Source: a virus (taxonomy: Duplodnaviria > Heunggongvirae > Uroviricota > Caudoviricetes). Taken from it: a DNA stretch of 4,877 nucleotides. This document shows, one piece after another, positions 1,703 through 4,877 of the stretch (positions are counted from its first letter, which is position 1; each line of letters starts with the position of its first letter). The notes beneath the pieces were generated by a model. That model was not told the DNA's origin and did no database searches. It worked only from the letters and a program-made list of their open reading frames with translations. The position numbers and the translations under genes were made by a program. Location: IMG/VR virus record IMGVR_UViG_2690316278_000003. One strand, given 5' to 3'.

Positions 1703-1963
1703 TCACTCATCTTCAAAAGCAGAAAAACCAGCCTTAATCCCAGCTTCTTTCAGAGACGGCAACGATGTGACAAATTCATTTGCACGCGAAATAAAACCAT
1801 CCGTCACAAGCCCATCCACAAAATGAATTAACGCAGCTCCACTCTTCCTTTGTTGAGACTGTAAACATTTAATACGGCAGTGGCTGACAATAGCGCCATT
1901 CTCAACGCGCACAGTATAGAGGCCATCTTCACTAAAAATTTCACGTAATTCTTCGATTTTCAT
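1703..1963 (-). CDS. Rem-like small phage protein (86 aa), paralog of the ORF at 4295..4582
   Basis: ATG at 1963..1961 with GGAAGGA SD 8 nt upstream; begins MKIEELREIFSEDGLYTVRVENGAIVSHCRIKCLQSQQRKSG. About 85% identical at its N-terminus to the second copy. Placement directly downstream of hok mirrors the hokD-rem arrangement of the K-12 Qin prophage (recalled synteny, not a sequence match). Confidence 0.7.
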   Translation of the reverse strand: MKIEELREIFSEDGLYTVRVENGAIVSHCRIKCLQSQQRKSGAALIHFVDGLVTDGFISRANEFVTSLPSLKEAGIKAGFSAFEDE

Positions 1964-2083
1964 CAACAGAATCCTTCCAGATAAATAGCACTCCCCTGTT
2001 CGGGGTCCATCCCTCTTCTCCCTGCGCGCTACTTAAGTATTTTTGATTCTATTCCGGCACCATCTAAAACTTCAAACGCGTTG

Positions 2084-2115
2084 AAAATAAAAACAAAAAC
2101 CCGCCGAAGCGGGTT
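2084..2115 (-). terminator. Rho-independent terminator downstream of hok copy 1
   Basis: Minus strand reads CCCGC-TTCG-GCGGG followed by TTTTTGTTTTTATTTT (plus-strand stem 2100-2104/2109-2113, A-tract 2084-2099). Confidence 0.6.
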
Positions 2116-2183
2116 AAGTGTGGGTGCATTGAGGATGCCTGACCCATCAGAGGTGGCGAGGGATTTCTCCCCCGCCTGGTCTC

Positions 2184-2339
2184 TTACTCCTCAGGTTCGT
2201 AAGCTGTGAAGACAGCGACCTCCGTCTGGCCGGTTCGAATTCGTACCTCGCAGAGGTCTTTCCTCGTTACCAGTGCCGTCACTATGACGGTTAAACAGAT
2301 GACGATCAGGGCGATTAACATCGCCTTTTGCTGCTTCAT
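2184..2339 (-). CDS. hok: Hok/Gef-family type I membrane toxin (51 aa)
   Basis: Hand translation from ATG 2339..2337: MKQQKAMLIALIVICLTVIVTALVTRKDLCEVRIRTGQTEVAVFTAYEPEE, matching the Hok/Gef family and closely the HokD/RelF sequence as recalled. Strong SD AAGGAGAAG upstream. The track ORF 2184..2396 is the same frame with a 19-codon in-frame upstream extension (MNGKSRLASYVPKGKEKQA) that lacks an SD. Confidence 0.9.
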   Translation of the reverse strand: MKQQKAMLIALIVICLTVIVTALVTRKDLCEVRIRTGQTEVAVFTAYEPEE

Positions 2340-2404
2340 AGCCTGCTTCTCCTTGCCTTTCGGCACGTAAGAGGCTAACCTAGATTTGCCGTTCATAGAT
2401 TGAG

Positions 2405-2469
<65 letters not shown>

Positions 2470-2471
2470 GC

Positions 2472-2548
2472 TGGCCCACCACCGAGGACTCGAACCTCGC
2501 ACCGTCAACTTAGAAGGTTGATGCTCTATCCGGATGAGCTAGTGGTGG
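2472..2548 (-). tRNA. tRNA-Arg (anticodon UCU)
   Basis: Minus strand CCACCAC-TA-GCTC-ATCCGGATA-GAGC-A-TCAAC-CTTCTAA-GTTGA-CGGTG-CGAGG-TTCGAGT-CCTCG-GTGGTGG-G-CCA. All 7 acceptor pairs, anticodon stem and T-stem form; 77 nt with encoded CCA. Anticodon TCT in a 7-nt loop. Confidence 0.85.
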
Positions 2549-2549
2549 T

Positions 2550-2626
2550 TGGTGGCCCTTGCTGGACTTGAACCAGCGACCTGGCGATTATGAGTCGCTC
2601 GCTCTGACCAACTGAGCTAAAGGGCC
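2550..2626 (-). tRNA. tRNA-Ile2-like (anticodon CAU, ileX/ileZ type; automated tools may call it tRNA-Met)
   Basis: Minus strand GGCCCTT-TA-GCTC-AGTTGGTCA-GAGC-G-AGCGA-CTCATAA-TCGCC-AGGTC-GCTGG-TTCAAGT-CCAGC-AAGGGCC-A-CCA; 77 nt, acceptor fully paired, CCA encoded. Acceptor and T-arm closely resemble E. coli ileX as recalled. Separated from tRNA-Arg by 1 nt. Confidence 0.85.
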
Positions 2627-2635
2627 GGAGGCAGA

Positions 2636-2665
2636 ATAATAACCATATGTCATCACATCTGCAAA
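2636..2665 (-). promoter_or_regulatory. Candidate sigma70 promoter for the tRNA cluster (weak -35, good -10)
   Basis: Minus strand TTTGCA/TTGCAG (2665-2659), 17-18 nt spacer, TATTAT (2641-2636), then GC-rich CTGCCTCC before the tRNA-Ile 5' end at 2626. By-eye hexamer match only. Confidence 0.25.
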
Positions 2666-2712
2666 CTCATCTGACCACCAGCACGTTTAACGTCCTGTGC
2701 CGTTTTTCAGGT

Positions 2713-2738
2713 ATAAAAAAACCCGCATAAAGCGGGCT
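2713..2738 (-). terminator. Rho-independent terminator about 80 nt downstream of the Q-like gene (tR'-like position)
   Basis: Minus strand GAGCCCGC-TTTAT-GCGGG followed by TTTTTTTAT (plus-strand stem 2722-2726/2732-2736, A-run 2713-2721). Confidence 0.55.
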
Positions 2739-2815
2739 CTTTCAAATGTCCATGTCTGCTATTCGCCTCGCGGTACAGCTTTGCGAAGCGTACAAGAATT
2801 GAAGCAGTTTTTACG

Positions 2816-3370
2816 TCAAAAAGCAATAACTTTTTTCTCTATACCAAAAGCCATAACCATTGGTTTGTACAAAATAAATTCTGCCACCTTTAGCCAATGC
2901 TCAATGCGTCTTTCACAGGTTCTTAAACTCCATTTCGGGTGTGCATCATTCAGCAGTTCAGCCATTTTGCGTTTGGTCATCCCCCGCCCCTCATACCGTT
3001 GCCGAAGGACGCTAATCAATCCTGGATGCTCTGCCAGCACCTCACTTATGACCCGATCAATACATAACGCCTCTGCATCAGTACAATGCGCCAGCCAGCT
3101 CTTTTGCTTACCGTTAATCATATCCCGCAAAAAAGCCTCAAGTTCAGACTTGTTCAGACCTGCTTTTTTCATCCTCCGGAGCGCCTCGTTAATTGCCGTT
3201 TTTGTCAGCTTTTTAGAGGTCAACATCAGGTTAAACATATTCCCCGTCTTACCGCCACCAATATACGACCAGCGCCCCCACATACGTAGTTTTCCCTGAA
3301 TCCAGACACTTTCCAGCGTGGTGAGACGAAGGTGTTCTCCGCTTTTTCCTGTATTCGTTGGGTAAATCAT
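2816..3370 (-). CDS. Putative late-gene regulator in the antiterminator-Q position (184 aa); assignment by synteny only
   Basis: ATG at 3370..3368 preceded by AAGGAGG, overlapping the YbcO-like stop (TTATGA). Product begins MIYPTNTGKSGEHLRL. Sits between a ybcO-like gene and the terminator/tRNA cluster, where Q lies in lambdoid and Stx phages. No Q sequence motif recognised. The 40-codon upstream extension in the track is rejected. Confidence 0.55.
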   Translation of the reverse strand: MIYPTNTGKSGEHLRLTTLESVWIQGKLRMWGRWSYIGGGKTGNMFNLMLTSKKLTKTAINEALRRMKKAGLNKSELEAFLRDMINGKQKSWLAHCTDAEALCIDRVISEVLAEHPGLISVLRQRYEGRGMTKRKMAELLNDAHPKWSLRTCERRIEHWLKVAEFILYKPMVMAFGIEKKVIAF

Positions 3371-4294: not shown

Positions 4295-4582
4295 TCAATC
4301 CTGCTCAAGATTGTAGATGAGTTTATTCTTCAGCAAAAGCAGAAAACCAGCCTTAAAACCAATCTCTTTCAAAACCCGTAATGATGTGACAAATTCGTCC
4401 TCACGCAAAATAAAACCGTCCGTCAGAAGTCCATTACAAAAATAAAATAACACAGCACCGCTCTTCCTTTGTTGAGATTGCAAACATCTAATGCGGCAAT
4501 GGCTGACAATCGCTCCATTCTCAACGCGCACAGCATAGAGGCCATTTTCACTAAAAATTTCACGCAATTCTTCGATTTTCAT
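4295..4582 (-). CDS. Rem-like small phage protein, second copy (95 aa, divergent extended C-terminus)
   Basis: ATG at 4582..4580 with GGAAGGA SD; MKIEELREIFSENGLYAVRVENGAIVSHCRIRCLQSQQRKSG. Paralog of 1703..1963; the C-terminus differs after KAGF because of a 1-nt difference in a homopolymer. Confidence 0.7.
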   Translation of the reverse strand: MKIEELREIFSENGLYAVRVENGAIVSHCRIRCLQSQQRKSGAVLFYFCNGLLTDGFILREDEFVTSLRVLKEIGFKAGFLLLLKNKLIYNLEQD

Positions 4583-4700
4583 CTTCAGAATCCTTCCAGA
4601 TAAATAGCTCTCCCCTGTTCGGGGTCCATCCCTCTTCTCCCTGCGCGCTACTTAAGTGAGTCGATTCTATCTGCGAAGGTGCGCGAATCAAATTCACCGG

Positions 4701-4754
4701 AAATAAACAACAAAAAACCCGCCGAAACGCTGAGAGATCACAGCGATGGGCGGG
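4701..4754 (-). terminator. Rho-independent terminator downstream of hok copy 2 (extended two-part stem)
   Basis: Plus-strand CCCGCC (4718-4723) pairs with GGCGGG (4749-4754), with an inner CGCTG/CAGCG stem. On the minus strand it is followed by a T-rich tract (plus-strand A-tract 4701-4717). Positional homolog of the 2084-2115 terminator. Confidence 0.5.
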
Positions 4755-4831
4755 TTAAGTGCGGGTGCGTTGAGGATGCCTGACACATCAGAGGTGGGCG
4801 GGGATGGGATCAGCTCCCCGCCCGGTCACTC

Positions 4832-4877
4832 TTACTTCCTGGATTCGTAGTCTACGAAGACAGCGACCTCCGTCTGG
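4832..4877 (-). CDS. hok: Hok-family toxin, second copy, partial (C-terminal 15 codons plus stop; rest beyond the right edge)
   Basis: Minus-strand translation of 4877..4832 gives ...QTEVAVFVDYESRK then TAA, homologous to the C-terminus of hok copy 1 (QTEVAVFTAYEPEE) and other Hok/Gef proteins. Embedded in the duplicated module. Confidence 0.7.
   Translation of the reverse strand, partial: QTEVAVFVDYESRK

What the first reader, a model, noticed from the sequence alone, without database searches (positions are those of the whole stretch)
2627..2815. Compact Q-to-tRNA spacer: terminator hairpin then a candidate stable-RNA promoter
The spacer between the Q-like stop (2816) and the tRNA-Ile 5' end (2626) is about 190 nt. 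It holds a clean intrinsic terminator (2713-2738) about 80 nt after the stop, then a candidate promoter (TTTGCA, 17-18 nt, TATTAT, GC-rich discriminator) that would start transcription 2-4 nt before the tRNA. If real, the tRNAs and the downstream hok could be expressed independently of Q antitermination, which matters for whether hok is made in the lysogen. Where pR' and the qut site lie relative to the terminator is unresolved.
Basis: inference. Interest (0 to 1): 0.4.

Follow-up and report, generated by a model that had tools for sequence, protein, structure and literature searches.

The report
Phage late-promoter terminator plus tRNA promoter
The 190-base gap between a prophage Q-type antiterminator gene and its tRNA genes holds two ordinary, already-described kinds of control element: the late-promoter/terminator cassette that Q acts on, and a separate promoter that probably lets the tRNAs be made without Q.

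Summary
The hairpin (core 2736-2722, U7 2721-2715) is a strong intrinsic terminator (-18.2 kcal/mol, z -6.1). The promoter-like site is TTGCAG (2664-2659), 17 nt, TATTAT (2641-2636), ending 9 nt before tRNA-Ile.

That site matches 'pT', the putative tRNA promoter annotated upstream of ileZ in 933W-type Shiga-toxin phages. Its hexamers and spacing are kept in 36 of 39 distinct upstream variants, in at least five different contexts. Published dRNA-seq in E. coli Sakai reports a primary start site driving those tRNAs.

The unresolved pR' probably lies upstream of the terminator and overlaps the Q stop codon. A conserved cassette, TTGnnn-17-TTnAAT-5-TAnGCT (2826-2787), follows DUF1133/AntQ-family Q genes in 22 of 24 evaluable loci. 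It has the geometry of lambda pR' plus its sigma-dependent pause element. The hairpin is therefore tR', ending a predicted 66-77-nt leader RNA.

The spacer is a mosaic, with a junction near 2674/2671. It is 100% identical in an intact E. coli prophage whose lysis genes follow the tRNAs.

The tRNA-Thr is 3'-truncated and fused to a hok gene that lacks its own promoter, so read-through into hok is plausible but untested. This is a new member of a known kind and of modest interest.

The parts
2816..3370 (-). Q-like antiterminator gene (184 aa) of the DUF1133/AntQ family
   Evidence: Pfam DUF1133 2e-107 and Phage_antitermQ PF06530 at 29.4 bits against a cut-off of 26. PHROG 753 'anti-termination protein Q-like' 9e-80. 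phmmer to phage 21 Q, PDB 6P18, E 4e-4 in two colinear segments. It lies directly upstream of tRNAs and the lysis cassette in the intact prophage of E. coli CFSAN029787. It is 80% identical over residues 1-175 to the Q-like gene that precedes isrK in Salmonella locus L011, taken here as the Gifsy-1 AntQ equivalent.
2821..2826 (-). Candidate -35 hexamer (TTGCTT) of the pR'-like late promoter, inside the last codons of Q
   Evidence: TTG lies 17 nt upstream of TTnAAT in all 34 distinct cassette variants, whatever the reading frame or stop position of Q. That set was selected by a pattern requiring these letters. The unbiased count is 22 of 24 evaluable DUF1133 loci.
2798..2803 (-). Hexamer 1 (TTCAAT), the candidate -10 of the late promoter
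   Evidence: Variants: TTCAAT 18, TTGAAT 11, TTAAAT 4, CTAAAT 1. It is 17 nt from the TTG. It lacks the canonical A at position 2. This is an inference.
2787..2792 (-). Hexamer 2 (TACGCT, consensus TAnGCT): candidate sigma70-dependent pause element, or alternatively the true -10
   Evidence: TAnGCT is invariant in A2 and T6 and lies 5 nt after hexamer 1 in all 34 variants. The geometry matches lambda-type pR', seen here downstream of K-12 Qin ydfT as TTGCAT-17-TAAAAT-6-AACGAT. The whole 40-nt pattern is expected 0.00 times in the window.
2715..2791 (-). Predicted short leader RNA: about 77 nt if it starts at A2791, about 66 nt if it starts at A2780
   Evidence: Inferred from hexamer positions and the terminator. 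Homologous cassettes share about 35 nt at the 5' end, then diverge, and all end in an intrinsic terminator. It does not belong to the Rfam isrK family (19.9 bits against a cut-off of 50).
2714..2744 (-). Intrinsic terminator (tR'): core stem 2736-2722, U-tract 2721-2715
   Evidence: Folding energy -18.2 kcal/mol, z -6.09. In nearly all of the 24 sequences listed (the window plus 23 loci), an equivalent hairpin plus T-run lies about 50-140 nt after the Q stop; Pantoea L013 and Salmonella L011 are exceptions.
2671..2674 (-). Mosaic junction between the Q-cassette segment and the pT-tRNA segment
   Evidence: O157-type prophages match window 2860-2674 at 95% and then diverge. Stx phages match 2671-2600 at about 80%. 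O157 prophages carry 1.2-1.5 kb there, a small ORF plus a DNA methylase or HTH gene.
2636..2664 (-). pT-type tRNA promoter: -35 TTGCAG 2664-2659, 17-nt spacer, -10 TATTAT 2641-2636
   Evidence: Found. Same hexamers, 17-nt spacing and distance to the tRNA as the annotated 'pT; putative tRNA promoter' in a 933W-type phage (L002 3008-3036) and as Sakai Sp5. Among 36 variants the -10 has mean pairwise identity 0.98, against 0.70 for the spacer and 0.40 for the upstream 17 nt. A TSS is reported in Sakai (PMC7547250).
2627..2635 (-). G+C-rich discriminator and 2-3-nt 5' leader (TCTGCCTCC)
   Evidence: Read directly from the sequence. The distance from the -10 to the tRNA is 9 nt in 36 of 39 variants.
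2550..2626 (-). tRNA-Ile(CAU), ileZ-type
   Evidence: Rfam tRNA 70.5 bits. ARAGORN finds anticodon CAT. The identical sequence is annotated tRNA-Ile in RefSeq.
2472..2548 (-). tRNA-Arg(UCU)
   Evidence: ARAGORN. Rfam 56.4 bits.
2408..2470 (-). tRNA-Thr(UGU) remnant, truncated at the 3' end within the T-arm
   Evidence: Rfam matches only model positions 8-63, 33.5 bits. ARAGORN does not call it. Homology to intact copies stops at 2408.
2184..2396 (-). mok/hok toxin module lacking its own promoter and about 110 nt of 5' leader; a possible read-through target
   Evidence: Pfam HOK_GEF 3e-23. Alignment A2 to intact hok/sok loci. The only predicted terminator downstream of the tRNAs is at 2115-2098.

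Best explanation
The spacer joins two regulatory units of known kinds.

Unit 1 (2826-2714) is the late-gene control cassette of a DUF1133/AntQ-type Q protein.
- It is a sigma70 promoter whose -35 (TTGCTT) lies in the last codons of Q.
- Its -10 is TTCAAT. A second -10-like hexamer, TACGCT, sits 5 nt further on and overlaps the start site.
- By analogy with lambda pR', the second hexamer would hold sigma70 and pause RNA polymerase so that Q can load.
- Without Q, transcription ends at the tR' hairpin (2736-2715) and gives a short RNA of about 77 nt (about 66 nt if TACGCT is the real -10).
- With Q, polymerase reads through tR', the tRNAs and everything downstream.

Unit 2 (2664-2627) is pT, a constitutive sigma70 promoter (TTGCAG-17-TATTAT). 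It starts 2-3 nt before tRNA-Ile and makes the Ile(CAU)/Arg(UCU) tRNA cluster independently of Q, also in the lysogen.

The two units meet at about 2674/2671. Other prophages carry a 1.2-1.5-kb insert there.

Shown here: the terminator fold, the sequence conservation, the matching elements and the mosaic junctions. Taken from the literature: a TSS for the corresponding promoter in Sakai Sp5. Inferred: the exact pR' hexamers and start site, pausing, and Q loading.
For: Terminator:
- Folding energy -18.2 kcal/mol, z -6.1.
- In nearly all of the 24 sequences listed (window plus 23 loci) a hairpin plus T-run follows the Q stop; Pantoea L013 and Salmonella L011 are exceptions.

Q identity:
- Pfam DUF1133 plus PF06530, PHROG 'Q-like' and phage 21 Q structure, E 4e-4.
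- The same Q, a 100% identical spacer and the tRNAs precede holin-lysozyme-Rz-terminase in E. coli CFSAN029787.

Late-promoter cassette:
- TTGnnn-17-TTnAAT-5-TAnGCT is found in 22 of 24 evaluable loci retrieved by Q protein homology across Escherichia, Shigella, Citrobacter, Salmonella, Enterobacter, Klebsiella, Buttiauxella, Pantoea and others. It lies at the stop codon in 20 of them.
- It persists about 800 nt downstream when an isrK-anrP module is inserted, and about 580 nt downstream when a hok gene is inserted.
- It is expected 0.00 times by chance in the window.
- The TTG is kept whatever the Q reading frame.
- The same geometry is seen in a lambda-type pR' in K-12 Qin.
- The cassette definition (Q gene, pR', SDPE, terminator, late genes) is as given by Yin et al. 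2019 (bioRxiv 10.1101/651190).

pT:
- It matches the annotated pT of a 933W-type phage and Sakai Sp5 in hexamers, spacing and distance to the tRNA.
- Of 36 variants, 34 have TATTAT and 2 have TATCAT, all with a TTG 17 nt upstream. Mean pairwise identity is 0.98 for the -10, against 0.70 (spacer), 0.68 (discriminator) and 0.40 (upstream).
- At least five unrelated upstream contexts occur, including Sakai Sp10, where the tR' T-tract abuts the -35.
- The element is non-coding: the methylase stop codon lies 5' of the -35.
- dRNA-seq found a TSS driving the tRNAs in Sakai (PMC7547250).
Against: - There are no transcript data for this sequence or for any DUF1133-type pR'.
- Hexamer 1 (TTCAAT) lacks the A at position 2 that sigma70 normally needs. 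The start site could instead follow TACGCT, at about 2780.
- Neither register has a good -35 and -10 together, and no Q-binding element could be identified.
- The generic promoter scan is not above chance.
- The 34-variant table was selected with a pattern that required the conserved letters.
- Many pT variants are related by descent, so conservation overstates independent support.
- In this window the late genes do not follow the tRNAs. A second hok/nin-like block does, so the cassette may be a relic here.
- A 2-3-nt tRNA leader is unusually short.
Confidence: 0.7

Rival explanations
1. The hairpin is only the terminator of the early/Q operon. No promoter lies between Q and the hairpin, and the late promoter of this prophage is elsewhere, for example after the second nin-like block downstream.
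For: The window carries a second hok-ORF-DUF968 block after the tRNAs, which in other prophages precedes RusA and Q. Neither candidate -10 register is a strong sigma70 promoter. The consensus scanner finds no promoter there.
Against: - The 40-nt cassette is conserved far beyond its flanks and travels with DUF1133 Q genes across genera, even when displaced by insertions.
- In the intact CFSAN029787 prophage, between Q and the holin there are only this spacer, four tRNAs and about 290 nt of non-coding sequence that was not scanned for promoters.
- The geometry equals lambda pR' plus its pause element.
Confidence: 0.12
2. The true -10 of the late promoter is TACGCT (2792-2787), so transcription starts at about A2780 and gives an RNA of about 66 nt. 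TTCAAT and the upstream TTG would then serve another role, such as a Q-binding or UP-like element.
For: - TAnGCT keeps the two critical -10 bases, A2 and T6, in all variants. TTnAAT has T at position 2.
- By my reading of the 5-nt spacers listed, many of the TAGGCT/TAAGCT-type variants have an extended -10 (TGn) in front of it.
Against: - There is no -35-like hexamer 16-18 nt upstream of TACGCT in any variant.
- The invariant TTG sits exactly 17 nt from TTnAAT.
- The TGn motif is absent in the window and in most variants of its group.
- The invariant GC at positions 4-5 is not what sigma70 selects.
Confidence: 0.3
3. The TTGCAG-17-TATTAT motif is a passenger that travels with the tRNA module and is not an active promoter here. 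On this view the tRNAs are made only by processing of read-through transcripts from upstream.
For: - The variants share ancestry.
- The -35 is weak (3 of 6 matches) and there is no UP element.
- The generic scan is at chance level.
- Only one sentence of published TSS evidence exists, and it concerns a homologue, not this sequence.
Against: - The hexamers and their 17-nt spacing are kept while the spacer, discriminator and upstream flank diverge. The window has the most divergent spacer yet intact hexamers.
- A strong terminator lies 50 nt upstream and would starve the tRNAs in a lysogen.
- The 9-nt distance to the tRNA is fixed.
- A TSS is observed in Sakai Sp5 (PMC7547250).
Confidence: 0.12
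4. The short terminated RNA (about 2791-2715) is not just a by-product. It would be a trans-acting regulatory sRNA, like StxS or IsrK.
For: - Published precedent: StxS arises from pR'-tR' of Stx phages (PMC7547250).
- The cassette RNAs share a 5' part and carry at least four different 3' modules, a pattern seen in other prophage sRNA families (PMC4104026).
- The terminator has a long U-tract.
Against: - There is no Rfam family match above threshold: isrK 19.9 bits, Trp_leader 23.1 bits, isrJ no match at E<=1.
- It is not HnrS.
- No target was predicted and no Hfq data exist.
- The variable 3' part may simply be unconstrained.
Confidence: 0.2

Closest known systems
pR'-tR'-pT-ileZ-argN-argO region of Stx2 phages 933W and Sakai Sp5
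   Same: Same order of elements: Q gene, late promoter overlapping the Q stop, intrinsic terminator, then a tRNA promoter (TTGCAG-17-TATTAT, 9 nt) directly in front of tRNA-Ile(CAU) followed by tRNA-Arg. The pT hexamers, 17-nt spacing and distance to the tRNA are the same. A TSS for the tRNAs is reported (PMC7547250).
   Different: - The Q there is a 144-157-aa protein with its own pR' (TTTACG-16-TATCAT) and a 258-nt leader, StxS.
- Here Q is a 184-aa DUF1133 protein with a different cassette and a leader of about 70 nt.
- Here a methylase remnant is absent, the third tRNA is a truncated Thr rather than Arg, and hok rather than stx follows.
E. coli O157:H7 Sakai prophage Sp10 (ECs_1956-1958, ileZ4, argO4)
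   Same: Same gene order: DUF1367, DUF1364, DUF1133 Q, compact spacer, tRNA-Ile, tRNA-Arg. About 92% DNA identity through Q and the promoter cassette. The same double-hexamer cassette, short RNA, terminator and pT are present.
   Different: The spacer is 139 nt rather than 189 nt. The 3' part of the short RNA differs. The terminator T-tract directly abuts the pT -35, which is TTGCGG.
Lambda pR' / qut / 6S RNA / tR' (also seen in K-12 Qin downstream of ydfT)
   Same: Geometry of -35, 17 nt, -10, 5-6 nt, then a second -10-like hexamer with A2 and T6. This is followed by a short terminated transcript directly after the Q gene (general model in 10.1101/651190).
   Different: The Q protein family is unrelated (no BLASTP hit to YdfT). 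The -10 here is non-canonical (TTCAAT). The second hexamer is TAnGCT rather than AACGAT and sits 1 nt closer. The Q-binding element is unknown.
Phage 21 Q (Q21) regulatory cassette
   Same: Closest solved structure to the Q-like protein (PDB 6P18/6JNX, E 4e-4). The Pfam PF06530 match is above its cut-off. The cassette logic is the same.
   Different: Similarity is limited to two short segments. The two 8-bp direct-repeat Q-binding subsites of phage 21 were not recognisable here.
Salmonella Gifsy-1 AntQ-IsrK locus
   Same: The Q-like gene that precedes isrK in Salmonella locus L011, taken here as the AntQ equivalent, is 80% identical over residues 1-175 to the window's Q. A short terminated RNA starts about 35 nt after its stop codon (PMC4825925).
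   Different: - The window RNA is not IsrK (19.9 bits against a cut-off of 50).
- IsrK loci also match the Rfam C4 and c4-a1b1 families. They look like a P1 immI-type module inserted between Q and a window-type cassette that lies about 800 nt further on.

Membership tests
Q-dependent late-gene regulatory cassette (Q gene, pR', sigma-dependent pause element, terminator, late genes) | A Q-family antiterminator gene lies immediately upstream | tested here: met
   DUF1133 2e-107, PF06530 29.4 bits (cut-off 26), PHROG 'Q-like' 9e-80, Q21 structure E 4e-4.
Q-dependent late-gene regulatory cassette (Q gene, pR', sigma-dependent pause element, terminator, late genes) | A constitutive sigma70 promoter lies directly after or overlapping the end of Q | tested here: inconclusive
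   Conserved TTG-17-TTnAAT (2826-2798) is present in 22 of 24 evaluable loci. The -10 is non-canonical and no TSS data exist.
Q-dependent late-gene regulatory cassette (Q gene, pR', sigma-dependent pause element, terminator, late genes) | A promoter-proximal -10-like pause element (SDPE) is present | tested here: inconclusive
   TAnGCT (2792-2787) has invariant A2 and T6 and lies 5 nt after hexamer 1, a lambda-like geometry. Pausing cannot be tested computationally.
Q-dependent late-gene regulatory cassette (Q gene, pR', sigma-dependent pause element, terminator, late genes) | An intrinsic terminator lies shortly downstream of the promoter | tested here: met
   Folding energy -18.2 kcal/mol, z -6.1, U7 tract. 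Equivalent hairpins are present in nearly all homologous loci.
Q-dependent late-gene regulatory cassette (Q gene, pR', sigma-dependent pause element, terminator, late genes) | Late (lysis and morphogenesis) genes lie downstream | tested here: inconclusive
   Met in CFSAN029787, which has a 100% identical spacer followed by holin, lysozyme, Rz and terminase. Not met within this window, where the tRNAs are followed by hok, two small ORFs and a DUF968 gene.
Q-dependent late-gene regulatory cassette (Q gene, pR', sigma-dependent pause element, terminator, late genes) | A Q-binding element is present and terminator read-through depends on Q | not testable with these tools
   No recognisable repeat subsites were found. 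This needs in vitro transcription or reporter assays.
pT tRNA promoter of Stx/lambdoid phages (ileZ operon) | TTGCAG-like -35, 17-nt spacer, TATTAT -10 | tested here: met
   Positions 2664-2636. Same hexamers and 17-nt spacing as the annotated pT at L002 3008-3036 and as Sakai Sp5.
pT tRNA promoter of Stx/lambdoid phages (ileZ operon) | Fixed position 9 nt upstream of an ileZ-type tRNA-Ile(CAU), followed by tRNA-Arg | tested here: met
   The distance is 9 nt in the window and in 36 of 39 variants. The tRNAs are shown.
pT tRNA promoter of Stx/lambdoid phages (ileZ operon) | A primary transcription start is present in lysogens | not testable with these tools
   Reported only for Sakai Sp5 (PMC7547250). 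The exact coordinate was not available because the supplements are not held.
Stringently controlled stable-RNA promoter (rrn/tRNA type) | G+C-rich discriminator between the -10 and +1 | tested here: met
   TCTGCCTCC has 6 of 9 G+C. Most variants are G+C-rich; Sakai Sp9 (TCAGCAATC) is an exception.
Stringently controlled stable-RNA promoter (rrn/tRNA type) | An A/T-rich UP element upstream of the -35 | tested here: not met
   The upstream sequence gtgctggtggtcagatgagt is not A/T-rich, and the upstream flank is the least conserved segment (0.40).
Rfam isrK (RF01394) | Score at or above the gathering threshold of 50 bits | tested here: not met
   19.9 bits, E 0.45 at 2716-2789. True isrK loci score 67-78 bits.
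HnrS / EcOnc10 sRNA | [quoted passage not shown] | tested here: not met
   The Q-downstream RNAs differ between Sp9 and Sp10. The window RNA pairs with hha no better than shuffles do. The likely HnrS locus lies elsewhere.

The most novel reading that the evidence does not exclude
DUF1133/AntQ-type Q proteins would use a late promoter of unusual design that has not been characterised experimentally as far as I could find. Its -10 lacks the canonical A (TTnAAT), and an invariant TAnGCT pause-like hexamer overlaps the start site. The 66-77-nt terminated leaders would form a modular family of prophage sRNAs: about 35 nt shared at the 5' end and interchangeable 3' modules, some acting in trans as StxS does. 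In Gifsy-1-type phages, the true Q-responsive promoter would then be this cassette downstream of anrP, not the isrK promoter.
Probability: 0.25. Interest if true: 0.5.

Novelty: new member of a known kind. Interest (0 to 1): 0.3.

Why it matters
- The region explains how a lambdoid prophage can supply rare-codon tRNAs (AUA; AGA/AGG) to its host during lysogeny while the late genes stay off.
- It places the Q-responsive promoter and terminator for a widespread but uncharacterised Q family (DUF1133/AntQ), found in about half of complete E. coli genomes.
- In this window, any transcription from pT or pR' runs into a promoter-less hok toxin gene. The arrangement therefore bears on whether that toxin fragment is ever expressed.
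- None of this is surprising to a phage specialist. The value lies in annotation and in a testable promoter model for the AntQ family.

Tried and rejected
- HnrS (EcOnc10, 66 nt, PMC13502914) looked attractive because of its size. It was rejected. The Q-downstream RNAs of Sakai Sp9 and Sp10 differ although HnrS copies are identical. Pairing of the window RNA with hha is no better than for shuffles. A better HnrS candidate lies on the opposite strand after Rz.
- IsrK: only 19.9 bits. Genuine isrK follows a subgroup of AntQ-type genes and is part of a C4/immI-like module.
- IsrJ: expected downstream of anrP, where a window-type cassette sits, but the Rfam isrJ model scores 14.7 bits there and gives no match in the window at E<=1.
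- AgvB/AsxR lie after the moron CDS, not at pR' (PMC4104026).
- K-12 Qin ydfT is unrelated in sequence. It was useful only as a lambda-type pR' example.
- The Rfam Trp_leader hit (23.1 bits, E 0.23) is read as hairpin-plus-terminator noise.
- Reading TTGACG at the stop codon (2819-2814) as the -35 fails, because no -10-like hexamer lies 16-18 nt downstream.
- The Plunkett 1999 933W paper could not be retrieved. Searches for ileZ/argN found nothing. The Sy et al. supplements with TSS coordinates are not held.
- Gifsy-1 itself was not found in the phage collection.
- No convincing Q-binding repeats and no covariation-supported RNA structure were found in the leader.
Full report
**Layout of the window.** All relevant genes are on the minus strand. 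Read 5' to 3' on that strand, the window holds:
- a partial hok gene, from 4877 downward;
- a 95-aa ORF (4582-4295);
- DUF1367 (4256-3657) and YbcO/DUF1364 (3657-3367);
- a 184-aa Q-like gene (3370-2816);
- the 189-nt spacer (2815-2627);
- tRNA-Ile(CAU) (2626-2550) and tRNA-Arg(UCU) (2548-2472);
- a fragment of tRNA-Thr(UGU), about 2470-2408;
- mok/hok (2396-2184);
- two small ORFs and a DUF968 gene (1356-298).

- *Terminator.* The hairpin is CCCGC-TTTAT-GCGGG followed by seven T (core 2736-2722, U-tract 2721-2715). It folds at -18.2 kcal/mol, z -6.09, and no shuffle out of 200 folds as well. It starts 79 nt after the Q stop codon. The simple scanner missed it. I attribute this to the upstream A-run pairing with the U-tract, which lets greedy stem extension use up the tail.
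- *Promoter-like site.* The scanner reports TTTGCA-18-TATTAT. The same site reads as TTGCAG (2664-2659)-17-TATTAT (2641-2636), with nine G+C-rich bases before the tRNA.
- *Chance.* A generic sigma70 scan is at chance level, 2 sites against 1.3 +/- 1.2. The specific pattern TTG-N20-TATTAT is expected 0.03 times in the window. The sequence alone would therefore not establish a promoter.

**The Q-like gene.**
- It matches Pfam DUF1133 (2e-107) and, above its cut-off, Phage_antitermQ.
- It matches PHROG 753, 'anti-termination protein Q-like'.
- It weakly matches the solved phage 21 Q protein (PDB 6P18, E 4e-4, two colinear segments).
- In E. coli CFSAN029787 the same gene is followed by a 100% identical spacer. 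Then come tRNA-Ile, Arg, Thr and Val, and then holin, lysozyme, Rz and terminase. This is the position of a late-gene antiterminator.
- The Q-like gene that precedes isrK in Salmonella locus L011 is 80% identical to it over residues 1-175. I take that gene to be the Gifsy-1 AntQ equivalent described in PMC4825925.

**The downstream promoter is pT.**
- A 933W-type Stx2 phage record annotates 'pT; putative tRNA promoter' at TTGCAG-17-TATTAT, 9 nt before ileZ (L002 3008-3036). Sakai Sp5 has the same element.
- I collected tRNA-Ile upstream regions from about 155 loci by an exact match inside the tRNA, so the sample is unbiased with respect to the upstream sequence. There are 39 distinct variants.
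- In 36 of them a TAT[T/C]AT hexamer ends 9 nt before the tRNA (TATTAT 34, TATCAT 2), and a TTG lies 17 nt upstream.
- Mean pairwise identity is 0.98 for the -10, 0.79 for the -35, 0.70 for the spacer, 0.68 for the discriminator and 0.40 for the 17 nt upstream.
- The element occurs behind a DNA methylase stop codon, behind an HTH gene, directly behind a terminator T-tract (Sakai Sp10), in a further context, and in the window's own context.
- The window has the most divergent spacer but intact hexamers.
- Sy et al. [quoted passage not shown]
- I conclude that 2664-2627 is a functional member of this promoter class. The predicted start is at about 2629-2628, giving a 2-3-nt leader. No UP element is visible.

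**Where pR' lies.**
- I extracted the DNA after the stop codon of 24 DUF1133 genes found by protein homology in one genome per species.
- Twenty carry, at the stop codon, the architecture TTGnnn-17 nt-TT[C/G/A]AAT-5 nt-TA[N]GCT.
- Two more carry it displaced: Salmonella L011, 837 nt downstream after an isrK-anrP module, and Pantoea L013, about 580 nt downstream after a hok gene.
- Two lack it. One further locus is cut by a contig end.
- In 24 of 119 further isrK-bearing viral contigs the cassette lies about 800 nt downstream of isrK. In L011 it is preceded by a relic of the Q 3' end.
- In the window it occupies 2826-2787: TTGCTT, 17 nt, TTCAAT, TCTTG, TACGCT. The expected count by chance is 0.00.
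- The TTG is kept whether it lies in-frame in Q, spans the stop codon, or is non-coding.
- A variable transcribed segment and an intrinsic terminator follow in nearly every case.
- This geometry matches lambda-type pR' with its sigma70-dependent pause element. I verified that on K-12 Qin downstream of ydfT: TTGCAT-17-TAAAAT-6-AACGAT.
- It also fits the general cassette definition of Yin et al. (10.1101/651190).

The most economical reading is therefore as follows. The -35 is 2826-2821 and the -10 is 2803-2798. Transcription starts at about A2791, TACGCT acts as the pause element, tR' is at 2736-2715, and the leader is about 77 nt. The weak point is that TTnAAT lacks the canonical A at position 2. 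If TACGCT is the real -10, the start moves to about A2780 and the RNA is about 66 nt. In either case pR' is upstream of the hairpin, and the hairpin is tR'.

**The spacer is a mosaic.**
- O157-type prophages match the window from 2860 to 2674 at 95% and then diverge into a 1.2-1.5-kb insert, a small ORF plus a DNA methylase or an HTH gene, before reaching pT and the tRNAs.
- Stx phages match from 2671 to 2600 at about 80%.
- Sakai Sp10 has an even shorter version of 139 nt.
- The compact arrangement therefore recurs in nature and is not peculiar to this window.
- Shigella flexneri carries a 99.6% identical copy broken by insertions.

**Downstream consequences.**
- Homology to intact copies stops at 2408, inside the T-arm of tRNA-Thr.
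- From there the sequence aligns to hok/sok loci, but only from about 13 nt before the mok start codon. The first ~110 nt of the hok mRNA leader, including its promoter and 5' end, are missing.
- No terminator is predicted between the tRNAs and the hok terminator at 2115-2098.
- Transcripts from pT, and Q-modified transcripts from pR', should therefore run into hok. Whether the truncated mRNA is translatable is not known.
- From the established hok model (my own knowledge), loss of the 5' translational-activator element would be expected to keep it silent. This is an inference.

**Links to named sRNAs that were tested and dropped.**
- HnrS.
- IsrK.
- IsrJ.
- AgvB/AsxR.
- The isrK-orf45-anrP unit also matches the Rfam C4 and c4-a1b1 families. 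It therefore looks like a P1 immI-type module inserted between an AntQ-type Q and a window-type cassette.

**Verdict.**
- The tRNA promoter belongs to an already annotated, transcript-supported class.
- The terminator is the tR' of a Q cassette.
- The pR' position is newly inferred from comparative evidence.
- This is a new member of a known kind and of modest interest.
- The one less ordinary lead is the conserved double-hexamer late promoter and modular leader RNA of the AntQ/DUF1133 family.

Noticed in passing
window 2408-2470 (-): The tRNA-Thr(UGU) is cut in its T-arm. Homology to intact copies in E. coli CFSAN029787 and Shigella stops at 2408, and ARAGORN no longer calls it. The breakpoint joins the tRNA cluster to a hok module.
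   Followed up: partly
window 2184-2408 (-): This mok/hok copy lacks about 110 nt of its 5' leader, including its own promoter and mRNA 5' end, compared with intact hok/sok loci. The Rfam sok model scores only 19.5 bits here against 105-112 bits in intact loci. It can only be transcribed from upstream, that is from pT or pR'.
   Followed up: partly
window 1703-2396 and 4295-4877 (-): There are two tandem copies of a hok + 87/95-aa ORF module. The proteins are very similar (MKIEELREIFSE...) and have no Pfam match. This suggests two nin-like regions joined head to tail in a composite prophage.
   Followed up: no
L004 3075-3276; L011 3075-3268; L193, L194, L206, L209, L224: Loci with isrK after an AntQ-type gene also match the Rfam c4-a1b1 and C4 antisense RNA families above threshold. 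The isrK-orf45-anrP unit therefore resembles the P1/P7 immI (c4-icd-ant) module. A window-type promoter cassette lies about 800 nt downstream in 24 of 119 such loci.
   Followed up: partly
L033 15434-15510; L034 20591-20666; L007, L008: The short RNAs of the DUF1133 cassette share about 35 nt at the 5' end (…GCUUCGCAAAGCUGUAYCGCGAGGCGAA). They carry at least four unrelated 3' modules, each with its own terminator.
   Followed up: partly
L033 ~22700 (-) and L034 ~26998 (-) (Sakai Sp9, Sp10): An identical segment lies after the Rz gene on the opposite strand. It contains CTTCTACC, complementary to the hha ribosome-binding site, followed by a terminator. This is probably the published HnrS/EcOnc10 sRNA.
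   Followed up: partly
window 2094-2175 (-); L004 287-368: The Rfam isrK model gives weak hits (25.7 and 30.6 bits, below threshold) in the 3' untranslated region of hok. This probably reflects a similar hairpin-plus-terminator layout.
   Followed up: no
L013 3053-3674 (Pantoea osteomyelitidis): Here a hok gene sits between the DUF1133 Q gene and the promoter cassette. This is another case of a toxin module inserted next to the late promoter.
   Followed up: no
L009, L029 (Shigella flexneri SFBU1023): A 99.6% identical copy of this region is split in Shigella. The Q gene is interrupted at about residue 35, and a second break lies in DUF1367, presumably from insertion sequences.
   Followed up: no
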